From the NCBI RefSeq assembly GCF_009914755.1, contig NC_060941.1: 64,000 nt of DNA; one strand, given 5' to 3'. Every line of letters starts with the position of its first letter. Within the stretch, counting starts at the first letter, position 1. The notes under the pieces are model-generated. The model made no database searches, had not been told where the DNA came from, and worked only from the letters and a program-made list of their open reading frames with translations. Shown one piece after another: positions 8,078 through 33,734 of this stretch. Made by a program: the position numbers and the translations under genes. Source of the stretch: the human T2T-CHM13v2.0 reference genome, Homo sapiens.

Positions 8078-8819
8078 TTAGCAGTCGCTGTGAATGATGA
8101 TAGAAATATTAGGACCCAATGAGACTGGTGAAGGGGGCTTTGATCCAGGTAGAAGCAACAAGGAGTTCTAGGTGGTGGAAAACAAAGGCTGATGACACTA
8201 ACTTCCAAAGAACTCTGCGTGTGTATGTGTGTGTGTGGAGGAGATATATGGTTAGGAGGCCACAAATGGGAGCAAGAAGCAGAACAGCAAACCCTCTTTA
8301 ACCCTAGATTACAGGCACATGAGAGAAAAAACATCTCCACTCACGAGTTGCAGGTGATGCTGTTGTCTGGAATGGGCTTAGGACAAGAACCTGAAAGGAA
8401 TATTCAGGGAAGGGTGGTAGTTGTTGGGGTATTTGCTGCCCGCAGATCATGAGCTTCAGAGGGCACAACACCAGGGTGAGAGGGTTAGGAAATTGGGTGA
8501 GATTAGGGTGCATGGAGCAGTGAGGGGATGAGGCTTTATGATGATGGACACTGAGAGGGCATGGGATGTAGTGGGGATCTCAGCTGAACAGAGGTGTGGG
8601 ACTGATAGGATTGGGCCTGTGAGTCCCTTGGGAGAAGATGGGTTCAAGCTGGTCTCTTCTCTCCTGAGGTTGCATAGTGGTGGTCAAAGGGGTGGGGTTT
8701 AGGTGGTACCTTGTGCAAAAGGTACCACCTAACCTAGAGCAGGGATCTCATGTGTCCCCAGCCCAGACCACCGAGGTCAATAAGCAAAGCAGGCTGGGCC
8801 ACGACTGTGGGAAACCTGA

Positions 8820-16100: not shown

Positions 16101-16883
16101 GAAAGTGCTGGGCCAGGTACTTTAATTAATTCTTTTCTATTAAGGCTTCAGGACAACCCTATAAGGCATGGATCATCATTCCATTTTATTCAGATAGAAC
16201 TCAAGAAAATTCAGGGGCTCAAGGAAGTTCTCCCAGTTGGTTAGCAGTGGGGCCAGGCTTCAGATCTATGTCCCAGGGCTTTCCCACCCCTGAACCACCT
16301 CCAGATTCTGAGGCTATGCAAGAGGAAAGGCATTCATGCTGGGCGGACATTGGACCAGAAACACAAGCACACCCCTCCCTGATGATGTGGGTGCAATCTG
16401 CATTCCTAGGCTCACTGGCTGGTCTCCACCATAATTACTATCTTCTGTGTGCCACCTGGATGGAGCAGGAAGGGGAACTAGAAAGGCCACCACTACAGAC
16501 AGCACTTTTAACACGGAGCGTGTTAACCTCTTGTCTTAATAGTATTCAAATGAGGCCCCCAACCCAGTGCACTCAGGGCCAACACCTGGCTGCACAATTT
16601 GGATGGAGCGCCTCAGTCCCGAGGAGCATGAAGATCTCATTATGTAATTAGGTCTTTGGAAAATGAGCTATTATTCTTTGGCTCTGCAATCACGGGCTTG
16701 ATGCAGCTTAGGGATCCAAGGGGATGCTGGGGGTGTGTGTCTGTTGCTCACTGCTGCTGCTGCATGAAGACTGTTACAGAGCAAGACATCTCCAGAACGT
16801 CCCAACCTCTGGGAGGAAGGAAGCGGGACTTCTTTCCTCATCTTCCAACAGGGAACAGCTTAGGGATTAGGGACCGTCTAGAT

Positions 16884-17204
16884 CGGTGGTTCTCAAACTT
16901 CTTTGAGCATCAGAATCCCCTGGAGGAATTGTTAAAGCGTAAAGCATAGGTTGCTGGGCTCTACCTCCAGAATTTCAGATTCCATTGGTCTGGGCTGGCG
17001 ACCGAGAGTTTGCCTTTCTAACAGGTTCCCTGGCGGTGCTGATGGGAACTTGTTAGACCTCAGCCCAGACCAACTGAATCTGAAATTCTGGAGGTAGAGC
17101 CCAGCAACCTATGCTTTAACAGTTCCTCCAGGGAGTTTACTTCAGAAGATTGTAATTATGGTAGAGACCAGCCAGTGATCTGGGGACCGCACGTTGAGAA
17201 CGGG
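16884..17204 (+). mobile_element. MER5A interrupted by a templated inverted insertion
   Basis: Left end cggtggttctcaaactt...gcatcagaatcccctggagg; right end tggggaccgcacgttgagaac resumes after 17178. Confidence 0.85.
16918..17133. repeat. Long near-perfect inverted repeat (hairpin)
   Basis: 16940-16997 vs reverse complement of 17061-17118 = 56/58; outer 15-bp and inner 14-bp arms each with one mismatch. Confidence 0.97.
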
Positions 17205-17649
17205 GCCCTCTGGAGTAAACTGAGGCACCACCTAATCCCCAGCTTCCTCAGGAAGTCCCTCCAAGTCCTCACCATCAGATCTGAACTCCTCATTGTTCAC
17301 ATATGCACAGGGGGTACAGTTGAGCTTCAAAGTTTAGCGAGGGAGAGAAGAAGGACAGGTGTTATTCCTATTTTTCATATCAGGAAGCTGAAGCCCAGGT
17401 TCCAATGACTTAGAATTGGTAGAACTGGTAATAGAATCTAAGTCTTCTGTTAGCCATTGCAACAACTGGCCAGACTTAAATTTGCTCCAGTAGATCTTAG
17501 GCAGTTAGTTATTTCCTTGAGCTCAGGGCAGTTGGGACCACTATCTAGGCACCCAAATCTATATGCTTATCTTCTCCCTGGGCACCCAGCTAGACCACCT
17601 TTCCTGCCTTCTTTCTAGTCGGGTAAGGACGTGTTACCAATCTCTCTCC

Positions 17650-18404: not shown

Positions 18405-19664
18405 TTCTAGATCCTAAAATTTTACTTTGTAAAATGCCTCCTGATGGATAGTAATGTGTAGCAATGACATCATGACCTATGGATTTAGAGTCCCTTGTGA
18501 CATGGACATGAGAGAACAAATATTATCATTCATTCATTCACGTATTCATTTTTGTAGTGGACATTTATTGGATGCTCTCAAAGTGCTGGGCATTGAGTTG
18601 CAAAAGGGAACATGATGAGTGCACAATACATAAGCTTGGCAATTATGCTTTTTCCATGACAATGAAACTCATTATTAAATAAGAGACTAAACAATCACTA
18701 ATCTCTAATTACTGTATAAGAATGTCACATGTTATTTCACAGGGACTTTTGTAGAAGGTGTTAACAGAAAGGTTCATGCTAGGAGACAACTGCTCCTATT
18801 GAAGATCCTTCATTTTATAGTAATGGAAAATAGTAAAGGCTGAACTCAAAGCAATTGCAGAGAGTTAGGGACCTCTTTGTATTTTCTTTCTTTTAACACG
18901 GAATGATGTGAACCAGTAGAAGAGGTAAAAATTTCCCAAAAGACAACACCTCCCTTAAAGCTAGGTATAGCTAGTCATCTACAAATTTCTAGCCAAAAGA
19001 AACAAGATAAATCATGTGGAGAACTTTTAGAAAGGTTCCTTAAATAGCGTGGACTTAAGAAGGTGGGGAGCCTCTTTGCCCCCCCTTTCTCTTCCAGCAA
19101 CAATGGAAGAGAAAGAAGGTTCGGAACTCCCTGAGATGACAGTTGGGAGAGAGATGATCTAGATATACTTGAACATCATGGCCTTGGCCACCTAGCAAGC
19201 TCTAGGCAGGTGGAACAGGTGAGCCAGCCAGAGCAAGTTGAAAAGATGCTAATGGGAAGGCCAAAGAGACATAGCTAACTCCCACATGATCCAAACACAA
19301 ATTAATCTCTGAGAATTTGGTTCTAAGGTTGAAATGTAGGTAAGGTGCAAGAGGTTTCTAGGTAGCACTGATTCTCAGTATTGGGTATGGTCTAGCTTTT
19401 AGGTCAAGGAGGTATATCCAAGTCAATGAAATGAATTCCTGAAGAAGGATTCGATCTTAGAAGAAAGAGTCAATTGAACATGAATCCATGGTATGAGGCC
19501 ACCACTACCTACTTGGTCAGGGGTTCATGGCCAAGCTCCAGTTCTGGTAGAAGCAGCTAAAAGTCAATAGCAGAACCAGAGCAAAAAATCAGACAAGCAG
19601 TGAGGCCAAGTAGCAATGCTCAGGGCTCAAGAGGTACCTAGAACTTAATTATCATCCATGCACC

Positions 19665-31412: not shown

Positions 31413-33734
31413 CTTGTATGTGCTTGTGTGAGCCAAAAGAAAGCATTGCTGAAAGCAAGAGGCTCACAGGGAGAGGTCACACAACACATGGCCCAGGAAG
31501 CCACTGAAAAACTACAACAAAAAATAATTGAGCTCTTTGAGGCCTGATGGGAATCTTACTAAAACCTTCCTTTCCTCCTTGAGGCTTGATTTTCACATCT
31601 TGACTCTGCCACTGACTCATCTGTGTGACGTAGTCTTATTCACTTTCCCTTCACCTGTGGGATGGACATACTGGTGCTCATCAGGGCCAGCAGAGGAATT
31701 CAAACGATGTGACATGTCTGAAAACACTCGCAAACTATAAATATACTTTGGGATTTTTTTTTTAACAGGGAGAGGGTGAAAATAAAAGAGAAAAGCAAAT
31801 TTCAAAGCAGTGTGTTCTTCCTCTTTGTGTGAATGAGGTCTACTGGGACTCTAATCCTTAGAGATTGTTCTTTAGGGCTCTGAGAAGATTGGCTCCAGAG
31901 CCTTTAAAATGATTTGGAAATTGAAAAGAGAAAGTTAAAGCCATGTATGAATTTGTTTGTGCAGGGCATAGGAGCAGACGGTGAGGACAGGGGTATGTAG
32001 AAGATCACCACGTCATCCCAGGTGGAGGTGAGCTGGGGAGGCAGTGAGGGTGGTCACAACACTGAGTGTGAAGGCTCTAGCCCCAGAGGAATTCAGATAG
32101 GAATAACACTTAAGAAGAACTCCCCCAGACCCTCTCTGCCTCTCCTGAAGCTGGAGCTGCACTAGATGAAATGGCATAGGGGCTGAGCCAGCTCAAATAC
32201 TTCCTGCTGCGAGTGTCCATGTTTTTAAGAACTGTAGCAGGGCTGGGCTCTCAGGGGGATCAGGGTGTGGGAAGTGGCAATCAGAAGGCATACAGATGTT
32301 AAGGAGGAGTGATAGGTAGCTGGTGTTAGCACAGAAGTACAGTGGGGCTTCTGGCTCTGCTGGCAGTGAAAAAGCAAGATCAGAAGGTGCTACATTGTCC
32401 TTGAGTGATCTCCTTTGTGGGTGGCCTGTGTTTCCTCACCTAGGACATAGGATCAAAGCTCTGCCTACCCCCTGGGGCCCGGGGGAATGAGACAAAGCAG
32501 CAGGTAAGAAAGGGTTTAGGGGCATGAAGCCAACTGAATGGGTGAGGGGCTGGTGGCCACCATCTGCAGGTGACCTTCTGGAACTACCGCCCTTCCCAGC
32601 ATCTTCTCCCTACTTGGCTGCTGGGACCTCATTTGGACCTCACCTTGGTCTCCACATGGACCCTCTGGGCTCTGTAATGTTACTCTCCCACCTCCCACAC
32701 TCTGGCCTCTCATGCTCTCTTCCTGAGTCCCCAGCCACATTCCCACCCCATTGGAACCGCTGGCCATTGGGATCTGGGCAGCCCATAGCCCCCTGGGAGG
32801 TAACAGCTCCCAGTGGTGAAACAGCTGTGATGGGGCTTCCACGCATTGTCTGCACCTCAGGGTGGGAGGTCCGTCTTGGCTGAGGGTAGATGCCCCTCAT
32901 CGTGGTCTCAGCAGTGGAAGGACAGGCTTGGCCAGGCCCAGGAGGCAGGAGGGGATCTGTTGCCTGTTACAGGAGAGTTCTCTTTTCTCTCTCTGCACTT
33001 TTCTCTGACCTCACATCTAATTTGGGTTAGGGCGTGGGAACACCTCCATCAGTGATGCCCCTGGGGTTCTGATGCTTTGGGCAAGGGTGGGGACTTAGGA
33101 TAAGCAGAAAGGGAATGGCTTTGAAGCTTTCAAGGCAGAGCTAAGGAATACTGTGAGTAAATCTGTTCCATGCCAAGAAGAGAACCCAGGAGGAAGGATA
33201 ATATGTCCCTGGATCCTATGGCACTTATTTGAAATGGGTTCCATAGAGCATGTAATCGACCTGGTCAGAAATGCAGAGGAATAATATTTCAGATGCTAGG
33301 TGGGGACAGGGTGTTCTGAAACCACCTTTGCAAAATTATGACAGTAAGAGAAATCTGACATAGTTGATTCCATCTTGCTTCTGACCTCTAAGCTGTCCTT
33401 GGTCATTCCTGGGCATAGGCCCATTCCTGGGCAAAGGCCAAGCTAACTTTCAAAGGAATTTAGTTTATAGTTTAACTTATAGTTAAACAAGGATGATAAT
33501 AGCTGCTTCCTAACAGTATTCCCCTCCCTGTTTGAGGGCTGTAACTGCCTTTGTGAAAACTAATGAGGGACCACAAGATTAGGATTCTGAGAGAGGCCTG
33601 AACTCTGCTAGACGTAGATGCAGTTTCTATAATCCCTTATTGCTCAGGAGTCATGTGGCTAGAGGTCACAAGATTTGTGACTTCCCCAATTGCTCCTGTA
33701 GATAACATCACTATTATAAAACCTAAGATTGGTC

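What the first reader, a model, noticed from the sequence alone, without database searches (positions are those of the whole stretch)
16412..17204. Fossil serial template-switch event: three inverted local copies inside a MER5A
Seen: MER5A runs normally to 17043, then the sequence is (1) reverse complement of 17017-17030 at 17044-17057 (13/14), (2) 3-nt linker cct, (3) reverse complement of 16918-16997 at 17061-17133 (70/73, ignoring a 7-bp taaagc duplication in the left arm), (4) 9-nt linker agtttactt, (5) reverse complement of unique DNA at 16412-16447, about 700 bp upstream, at 17143-17178 (34/36), and then the MER5A right end resumes. Donors step progressively further upstream on the opposite strand. 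Overall about 5% divergence, far below that expected for independent ancient MER5A copies. Established: FoSTeS/MMBIR and Pol-theta repair give chained templated insertions. Inference: one primate-era germline event in which a nascent strand hopped three times along the opposite strand before rejoining.
Basis: partly seen in the sequence, partly recalled or inferred. Interest (0 to 1): 0.8.

Follow-up and report, generated by a model that had tools for sequence, protein, structure and literature searches.

The report
Fossil chained inverted templated insertion
An old transposon fossil in an ASIC2 intron carries a 135-base insert stitched together from backwards copies of nearby DNA, a clear but ordinary scar of a DNA-copying enzyme that jumped between templates long ago.

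Summary
All 26 other genomic copies I aligned lack these 135 nt.

The insert is built almost entirely from reverse-complement copies of local DNA:
- RC(17017-17030), 13 of 14 matches.
- A 3-nt filler.
- RC(16918-16997), 70 of 73 matches.
- RC(16412-16447), 34 of 36 matches. This donor is unique in the genome.

I add one piece. It overlaps the next piece by 4 nt, which is a microhomology.

The long inverted arm shares 12 private substitutions with its neighbour. It is 96% identical to that neighbour and a median of 74% identical to other copies, so it is a local copy and not a second transposon.

The best reading is one multi-template templated insertion (template switching or MMBIR-like, or Pol-theta snap-back). 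Arm divergence of 6 of 123 suggests an age of about 10-50 My.

Single-event origin and dating could not be tested, because no primate orthologues are reachable with these tools. The class is well documented, including germline events with up to five templates. This is a clean new example, not a new phenomenon.

The parts
16412..16447 (+). Donor of piece S5: single-copy DNA about 700 nt upstream of the insert
   Evidence: Its RC matches 17143-17178 at 34 of 36. The only other match in the assembly is that inverted copy.
16876..16883 (+). Left target-site-duplication-like octamer of the repeat element
   Evidence: The alignment to 26 other copies shows a TCTAGA-centred flank directly before the element's first base. 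It matches the right-hand octamer 17208-17215 at 5 of 8, read by eye.
16884..17043 (+). Left part of the old DNA-transposon fossil.
   Evidence: At least 40 scored copies in the assembly are 69-78% identical. The element differs from the majority consensus of 26 copies at 37 of 184 positions.
16918..16997 (+). Donor of piece S3 (left arm of the long inverted repeat)
   Evidence: Inverted pairs I1 (58 nt, 97%) and I3 (24 nt, 92%); 70 of 73.
16933..16939 (+). 7-nt tandem duplication in the left arm only, so it arose after the event (its placement within 16933-16946 is ambiguous)
   Evidence: Absent from the right arm and from the majority of the 26 other copies (alignment).
17017..17030 (+). Donor of piece S1
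   Evidence: Its RC matches 17044-17057 at 13 of 14. At the one mismatch the copy keeps the family-consensus base and the donor has changed.
17044..17057 (+). S1: inverted copy of 17017-17030, separated from its donor by a 13-nt spacer
   Evidence: Background rate for such a 14-mer is 5 of 20333.
17058..17060 (+). 3-nt filler (CCT) with no detectable template
   Evidence: Extending the donors on either side gives no match. No local match of 8 nt or more covers it.
17061..17133 (+). S3: inverted copy of 16918-16997 (right arm)
   Evidence: 70 of 73 to the left arm. Identity to the 26 other copies is a median of 74% and at best 80.6%. There are 12 shared derived substitutions.
17134..17146 (+). 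S4: inverted copy of downstream 17209-17221.
   Evidence: Pair I9; 12 of 13. Background rate 9 of 20333. The overlap is shown.
17143..17178 (+). S5: inverted copy of unique DNA 16412-16447
   Evidence: 34 of 36; E = 2.7e-6 against the whole assembly.
17179..17207 (+). Right end of the repeat element, resuming after the insert
   Evidence: Aligns to the right end of the 26-copy consensus. Eight nt that most copies have are missing at the join: 18 nt here against 26 nt in 17 of 26 copies.
17209..17221 (+). Donor of piece S4. It spans the right target-site-duplication-like octamer (17208-17215) and 6 nt of flank.

Best explanation
This is a neutral fossil of one complex templated-insertion event.

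Inferred steps:
1. A growing DNA 3' end left its template inside the old transposon at about 17043/17044. The cause was either a stalled or collapsed replication fork or a resected double-strand break.
2. The end was extended on the same-sequence strand in the opposite direction. It copied 17030 to 17017, and then 3 untemplated bases were added.
3. It copied 16997 to 16918, then 17221 to about 17209.
4. It moved on a 4-nt microhomology (CAGA) to copy 16447 to 16412.
5. It rejoined the original template at about 17179, where about 8 nt of the element are missing.

The result is an insertion of about 135 nt that forms nested inverted repeats with its donors.

Shown: the anatomy, the local origin of every piece, and that the insert is absent from paralogous copies.

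Inferred: that it was a single event; the enzyme pathway (template switching of the FoSTeS/MMBIR type is somewhat favoured over Pol-theta snap-back because of the 73-nt tract and the 630-nt reach); and an age of roughly 10-50 million years.

No function is implied.
For: (1) Every piece matches nearby DNA in reverse complement: 13 of 14, 70 of 73, 12 of 13 and 34 of 36.

(2) Together the pieces cover 132 of 135 inserted nt. This is the only such locus in the 64-kb window.

(3) The long arm is a local copy made late in the element's life. In its 73 columns, 58 are unchanged, 12 are derived and shared by both arms, 2 are derived in the left arm only and 1 in the right arm only. Its identity to the 26 other copies is a median of 74% and at best 80.6%. 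In the whole-genome search its best match besides itself is the left arm.

(4) Piece S5 comes from DNA that is unique in the genome.

(5) All 26 aligned paralogues lack the insert.

(6) S4 and S5 overlap by a 4-nt microhomology. TGAT recurs at both borders of the insert (17040-17043 and 17176-17179). G17044 is shared between the element and S1.

(7) Mismatch rates do not differ between pieces (chi-square p = 0.82).

(8) At 3 of the 4 mismatches inside the element, the inserted copy keeps the family-consensus base and the donor has changed. This is as expected for an old copy of the donor.

(9) The mechanism class is documented, from passages I read:
- Short-range template switches that create hairpins (PMC5453318; bioRxiv 10.1101/2021.11.26.470150, including a case of two adjacent switches).
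- Pol-theta switching between snap-back, in-trans and untemplated synthesis (PMC4912351).
Against: - No outgroup sequence could be examined, so neither the ancestral state nor the simultaneity of the pieces is shown.
- Microhomology is absent or unresolvable at three of the five junctions.
- The three upstream donors are colinear in the inverted orientation. A single long fold-back copy would give the same order.
- S4 rests on 13 nt with one mismatch.
- Gene conversion between the close inverted arms could have lowered their divergence, which would make the date too young.
- The homogeneity test has little power (7 mismatches in all).
Confidence: 0.7

Rival explanations
1. One long fold-back (hairpin-primed) inverted duplication of all of 16412-17030 (about 619 nt) was made first. 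Two later deletions in the right arm then removed RC(16998-17016) and RC(16448-16917).
For: The three upstream-derived pieces lie in exactly the order and orientation of one continuous inverted copy, and all the pairs are nested. Long palindromes are known to be unstable (my knowledge).
Against: - Neither gap is a clean deletion. A 3-nt and a 9-nt sequence foreign to the deleted stretches sit at the joins.
- The 9-nt one, together with the next 4 nt, matches downstream DNA in reverse complement at 12 of 13 (background 9 of 20333).
- The centre of symmetry (14-nt arms, 13-nt spacer) is kept. Palindrome resolution usually removes the centre (my knowledge).
- It needs three complex events where one suffices.
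Confidence: 0.15
2. Several separate short template-switch or repair events hit the same spot at different times and built the insert stepwise.
For: Loci with two successive template-switch events are described (PMC10710096 passages, mir-4713 and mir-3086). The divergence data are too few to exclude different ages.
Against: - Four independent rare events would have to land within 135 nt, in a window where no other such locus exists.
- The pieces abut directly or overlap (a 0-nt join, a 4-nt overlap and one 3-nt filler).
- The mismatch rates are similar.
Confidence: 0.1
3. A second, independent copy of the same transposon family inserted in inverted orientation, or the matches are chance.
For: Both arms of the long pair are family sequence. 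Other genomic copies match both arms at 70-88%.
Against: - 12 shared private substitutions, and 96% identity between the arms against a median of 74% to other copies.
- One piece is unique non-repeat DNA.
- The inverted part has no transposon ends.
- The background rates.
Confidence: 0.02
4. Assembly artefact (a chimeric fold-back read).
For: None found. Reads could not be inspected.
Against: The arms differ by 6 substitutions and a 7-nt indel, and the copy skips 19 and 470 nt of the donor. A fold-back read artefact would be a continuous, identical copy (inference).
Confidence: 0.02

Closest known systems
Short-range template-switch mutations (four-point model; PMC5453318, bioRxiv 10.1101/2021.11.26.470150, PMC10710096; passages read)
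   Same: A tract that is the reverse complement of nearby sequence is inserted, copying then returns to the original template, and a hairpin-forming inverted repeat is created in one step. Adjacent double switches have been reported.
   Different: - The reported events are mostly short: mean 11.6 bp, and the longest in unmasked DNA are 97-180 bp, in the preprint passages.
- In one filter of that study the distance between switch points 1 and 4 is limited to 250 bp.
- Here there are four tracts (14, 73, 13 and 36 nt) in one chain, with donors up to about 630 nt away and on both sides of the join.
MMBIR-type templated insertions (MMB-TI; PMC8421209, passages read) and FoSTeS/MMBIR in general
   Same: The template is inverted and close by, multi-template chains occur (germline events with up to five templates), and copying returns to the original template without gross rearrangement.
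   Different: That paper reports microhomology at most junctions (138 of 155 and 135 of 148 resolvable germline junctions with at least 1 bp). Here only one junction shows a clear 4 nt and two more show 1-4 nt that depend on an unknown ancestral state. The event is also old, so the junctions may have mutated.
Polymerase-theta end joining with snap-back synthesis (PMC4912351, passages read)
   Same: Reverse-complement copies of the break's own flank, short untemplated filler, repeated switching of mode, and a small deletion at the site.
   Different: The median insertion reported there is 7 bp. Here one tract is 73 nt and one donor lies about 630 nt from the join, which fits a processive replicative template switch better (inference).
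Serial replication slippage (seen only as cited in PMC5453318; original papers not read)
   Same: Several consecutive slippage or switch steps produce complex insertions that include inverted pieces.
   Different: It was described for disease mutations. I could not compare details.

Membership tests
Template-switch / templated-insertion mutation (TSM, MMB-TI) | The inserted tract is the reverse complement of nearby sequence | tested here: met
   Four tracts at 13 of 14, 70 of 73, 12 of 13 and 34 of 36. The background rates are far lower.
Template-switch / templated-insertion mutation (TSM, MMB-TI) | The original sequence continues on both sides (return to the first template) | tested here: met
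   The element aligns to 26 paralogues on both sides of the insert.
Template-switch / templated-insertion mutation (TSM, MMB-TI) | The ancestral allele lacks the tract (orthologous outgroup) | not testable with these tools
   No primate or other mammalian genome is reachable. The only proxy is that all 26 paralogous copies lack it.
Template-switch / templated-insertion mutation (TSM, MMB-TI) | Microhomology at the switch junctions | tested here: inconclusive
   4 nt at the S4/S5 junction, 1 nt at the entry, up to 3-4 nt (TGAT) at the exit if the ancestral copy already lacked 8 nt, none at S1/S3 (3-nt filler) and none at S3/S4.
Template-switch / templated-insertion mutation (TSM, MMB-TI) | All parts arose in a single event | not testable with these tools
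   Indirect only: the pieces abut, and their mismatch rates are homogeneous (p = 0.82, low power).
Polymerase-theta mediated end joining | Dependence on the enzyme; short templated tracts from the immediate flanks | tested here: inconclusive
   S1 and S4 have donors within 27-75 nt. S3 (73 nt) and S5 (donor about 630 nt from the join) are atypical (PMC4912351 reports a median of 7 bp). Dependence on the enzyme cannot be tested on a fossil.
   At least 40 scored genomic copies. The consensus of 26 copies shows about 14-nt terminal inverted repeats and TCTAGA-centred flanks. The local octamers match at 5 of 8 (read). The family name itself was not checked against a repeat library, because none was available.

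The most novel reading that the evidence does not exclude
In one step the event created a near-perfect hairpin of about 230 nt. The predicted RNA MFE is -152 kcal/mol on the ASIC2 sense (minus) strand and -163 on the plus strand. It lies inside an intron of a neuronal gene. It may therefore be a de novo source of small RNAs or an ADAR-edited double-stranded RNA, as described for template-switch-born primate miRNAs (PMC10710096). No Rfam family reaches its threshold here, and no expression data could be consulted.
Probability: 0.05. Interest if true: 0.45.

Novelty: new member of a known kind. Interest (0 to 1): 0.3.

Why it matters
This is a tidy, fully resolvable example of a multi-template, short-to-medium-range templated insertion fixed in the human genome.
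- It has four templated tracts and five junctions, with donors on both sides of the join and up to about 630 nt away.
- It sits between the roughly 10-100-bp template-switch mutations catalogued in primates and the kilobase-scale FoSTeS/MMBIR rearrangements of genomic disorders.
- It shows how such events are missed or mis-annotated inside old repeats.
- The transposon gives a built-in ancestral reference, which makes the case useful for teaching or benchmarking.

It does not change what is known about the mechanism.

Tried and rejected
- **Rfam, permissive thresholds, 16300-17400:** 5 weak matches, none near its gathering score (best MIR168 at 25.8 against 66; mir-544 at 23.2 against 66.5). 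No known RNA family.
- **The 36-nt pair as terminal inverted repeats of another transposon spanning 16412-17178:** rejected. The 36-mer has no other genomic copy. Only the right flank is element sequence, whereas an insertion into the element would leave element sequence on both sides.
- **Transposon-excision footprint (hairpin-opening palindromic nucleotides):** rejected by inference. Such footprints are a few nt and lie directly at the break. They are not 73-nt tracts with a 13-nt spacer.
- **Skipping across stems in a folded template:** I looked for inverted repeats bracketing the skipped donor stretch 16448-16917. The pair list shows none at the boundaries. The nearest, I10, pairs 16906-16917 with 16304-16315, which lies outside the copied region.
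- **A template for the 3-nt filler:** none found.
- **Literature on MER5A classification:** the search and the one passage read (PMC3758187) gave nothing useful.
- **Supplementary files of the cited papers:** not opened. Catalogues of template-switch loci held there could already list this locus.

Full report
**What is there**

The sequence and the repeat scan show a set of nested inverted repeats between 16412 and 17221.
- 17044-17057 is the reverse complement (RC) of 17017-17030, at 13 of 14.
- 17061-17133 is the RC of 16918-16997, at 70 of 73. The left arm carries 7 extra nt.
- 17143-17178 is the RC of 16412-16447, at 34 of 36.

**The host element**

A search of the window's own 3.1-Gb assembly with 16400-17210 found 48 matches. 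Apart from the self and inverted-self matches, these are copies of one repeat family, matching 16874-17046 at 69-78% identity. A few shorter stretches match the inverted arm at up to 88%.

I fetched 26 of these copies (6 loci and 20 regions) and aligned them with the local element.
- The family is about 190 bp long. It has terminal inverted repeats of about 14 nt and TCTAGA-centred flanks, which fits a hAT-type non-autonomous DNA transposon.
No repeat library was available to test it.
- The local copy runs from about 16884 to about 17207.
- It differs from the 26-copy majority consensus at 37 of 184 positions. The other copies have a median of 18% and a range of 11-27.5%, so it is an old copy.
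- All 26 other copies have a gap across 17045-17176. The 135 nt are therefore an insertion private to this copy.
- At the insertion point the local element has 18 nt where 17 of 26 copies have 26. Two copies (L025 and L026) have shorter intervals of their own there. About 8 nt are therefore missing. They were lost either in the same event or before it.

**The insert is local copy, not a second transposon and not chance**

Evidence from the 73 columns of the long arm:
- 58 are identical in the left arm, the right arm and the consensus.
- 12 are derived and shared by both arms.
- 2 are derived in the left arm only and 1 in the right arm only.
- The right arm is 96% identical (70 of 73) to its neighbour. 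Against the 26 other copies its median is 74% and its best is 80.6%.

Evidence from the genome and the window:
- With the insert alone as query, the best genomic match besides itself is the left arm on the opposite strand.
- The 36-nt piece comes from DNA with no other match in the assembly. The tool warns that its counts are lower bounds.
- A 14-mer with a reverse-complement partner (at most 1 mismatch) within 100 nt occurs at 5 of 20333 sampled positions of the window. For 13-mers the figure is 9 of 20333 (positions 16300-17300 were excluded from the sample).
- A scan of the whole window found 17044-17178 to be the only 135-nt window with at least 30% of its bases in exact 11-mers that recur reverse-complemented within 800 nt. 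It scores 69% against a window-wide base coverage of 1.15%.

**A fourth templated piece**

That donor lies downstream. It spans the element's right target-site-duplication-like octamer and 6 nt of flank, so it is the older partner.

The last 4 nt of this piece (17143-17146, CAGA) are also the first 4 nt of the next piece. That is a 4-nt microhomology at the switch. Only the 3 nt at 17058-17060 remain without a template. In all, 132 of the 135 inserted nt are templated locally, and the donors are not all upstream.

**Junctions**

- Entry: G17044 fits both the element's continuation in the family consensus and piece S1, giving 1 nt of microhomology.
- S1 to S3: no microhomology, with a 3-nt filler.
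- S3 to S4: a blunt join.
- S4 to S5: 4 nt of microhomology.
- Exit: TGAT occurs at both borders (17040-17043 and 17176-17179). This would be a 3-4-nt microhomology for the return if the ancestral copy already lacked the 8 nt. Otherwise there is none.

Since the arms have diverged by about 5% since the event, some junction identity may have been lost.

**Polarity of the differences**

- At the S1 mismatch and at the two adjacent S3 mismatches, the inserted copy keeps the consensus base and the donor has changed.
- At the third S3 mismatch the inserted copy has changed.
- The 7 extra nt (about 16933-16939) are in the left arm only. The right arm and most of the 26 other copies lack them, so this is a tandem duplication that arose after the event.

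This is what an old copy of the local donor should look like.

**Age**

The three reader pieces differ from their donors at 6 of 123 positions (4.9%; exact 95% interval 1.8-10.3%). With per-lineage rates of 0.5-1.2e-9 per site per year (recalled, not from a call), the point estimate is 21-50 My. The interval spans about 8-110 My.

Within S3, 12 shared against 3 private changes put the event in roughly the last tenth of the element's substitution history (inference). Mismatch rates do not differ between the four pieces (chi-square p = 0.82), but there are only 7 mismatches, so power is low. Gene conversion between the arms would make the date too young. "Primate-era" is plausible but not shown.

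**Mechanism**

The anatomy is that of a chained templated insertion. A 3' end that had copied the element up to about 17043 was extended on a strand of the same sequence, running backwards, in four bouts. It then rejoined the original template.

This could have happened at a replication fork, where the nascent leading strand switches to the lagging-strand template, as in the template-switch, FoSTeS and MMBIR models. It could also have happened on a resected break end that folded back on itself, as in Pol-theta snap-back synthesis. The sequence cannot separate the two.
- The 73-nt tract and the 630-nt reach lean toward a replicative switch.
- The 3-nt filler, the small deletion and the two very near donors would also suit end joining.

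From the passages I read:
- PMC5453318 and bioRxiv 10.1101/2021.11.26.470150 describe thousands of short template-switch mutations in humans. The mean tract is 11.6 bp and the longest in unmasked DNA are 97-180 bp. One locus is explained by two adjacent switches.
- PMC10710096 reports over 6,000 hairpins made this way in primates.
- PMC4912351 shows Pol-theta alternating between snap-back, in-trans and untemplated synthesis.

The phenomenon is thus established. This locus is a large, multi-template instance of it.

**Rivals**

- *Fold-back copy plus deletions.* A single fold-back copy of 16412-17030, followed by two deletions, explains the colinear order of the three upstream pieces. However, both "deletion" joins carry foreign bases, one of which is itself templated from downstream. 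The palindrome centre also survives. I give this 0.15.
- *Stepwise accumulation.* This needs several rare events to land in the same 135 nt. I give it 0.1.
- *An independent inverted transposon copy, or chance.* This is refuted.
- *An assembly artefact.* This is very unlikely, because the arms have diverged and the copy is discontinuous. I could not inspect reads.

**Consequence**

The insert and its donors can fold into a long hairpin. For 16910-17140 the predicted RNA MFE is -163.4 kcal/mol on the plus strand and -152.1 on the minus (ASIC2 sense) strand. No Rfam family reaches its threshold. I regard the locus as a neutral intronic scar. A role as a small-RNA or editing substrate is possible but untested.

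**What could not be done**

The decisive comparison is with orthologous sequences from apes, monkeys, a lemur and a non-primate mammal. It is outside these tools. I did not open the supplementary locus catalogues of the cited surveys, so I cannot say that this locus is unlisted in print.

Noticed in passing
window 8699-8732: A 34-nt near-perfect palindrome: 17-nt arms, no spacer, 94% complementary. It was the main other hit of the background scan for close reverse-complement 13- and 14-mers. From recall it resembles the ends of a small palindromic mariner-type element, but this was not tested.
   Followed up: partly
window 16915-17042: A weak Rfam match of the transposon's left part to the mir-544 precursor model (23.2 bits against a gathering score of 66.5; E = 0.11). 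It may only reflect family-derived sequence in that model. It is far below threshold.
   Followed up: no
window 16933-16946: A 7-nt tandem duplication (two TAAAGC-type units differing at one base) in the left arm only. It is absent from the inverted copy and from most of the 26 other family copies, so it is a small slippage event younger than the insertion.
   Followed up: yes
window about 1286, 19085-19103, 32039-32129: Isolated 13-mers with a reverse-complement partner (at most 1 mismatch) within 100 nt, found in the background scan. The repeat finder (seed 8, minimum length 13) reported nothing there, so they are probably chance or short low-complexity matches.
   Followed up: partly
loci L025 and L026 (other copies of the family): Two of the 26 other family copies have their own short deletions (intervals of 16 and 20 nt instead of 26) at the same GCTG-repeat stretch where the local copy is interrupted. 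This suggests the short repetitive stretch is prone to slippage or breakage.
   Followed up: no
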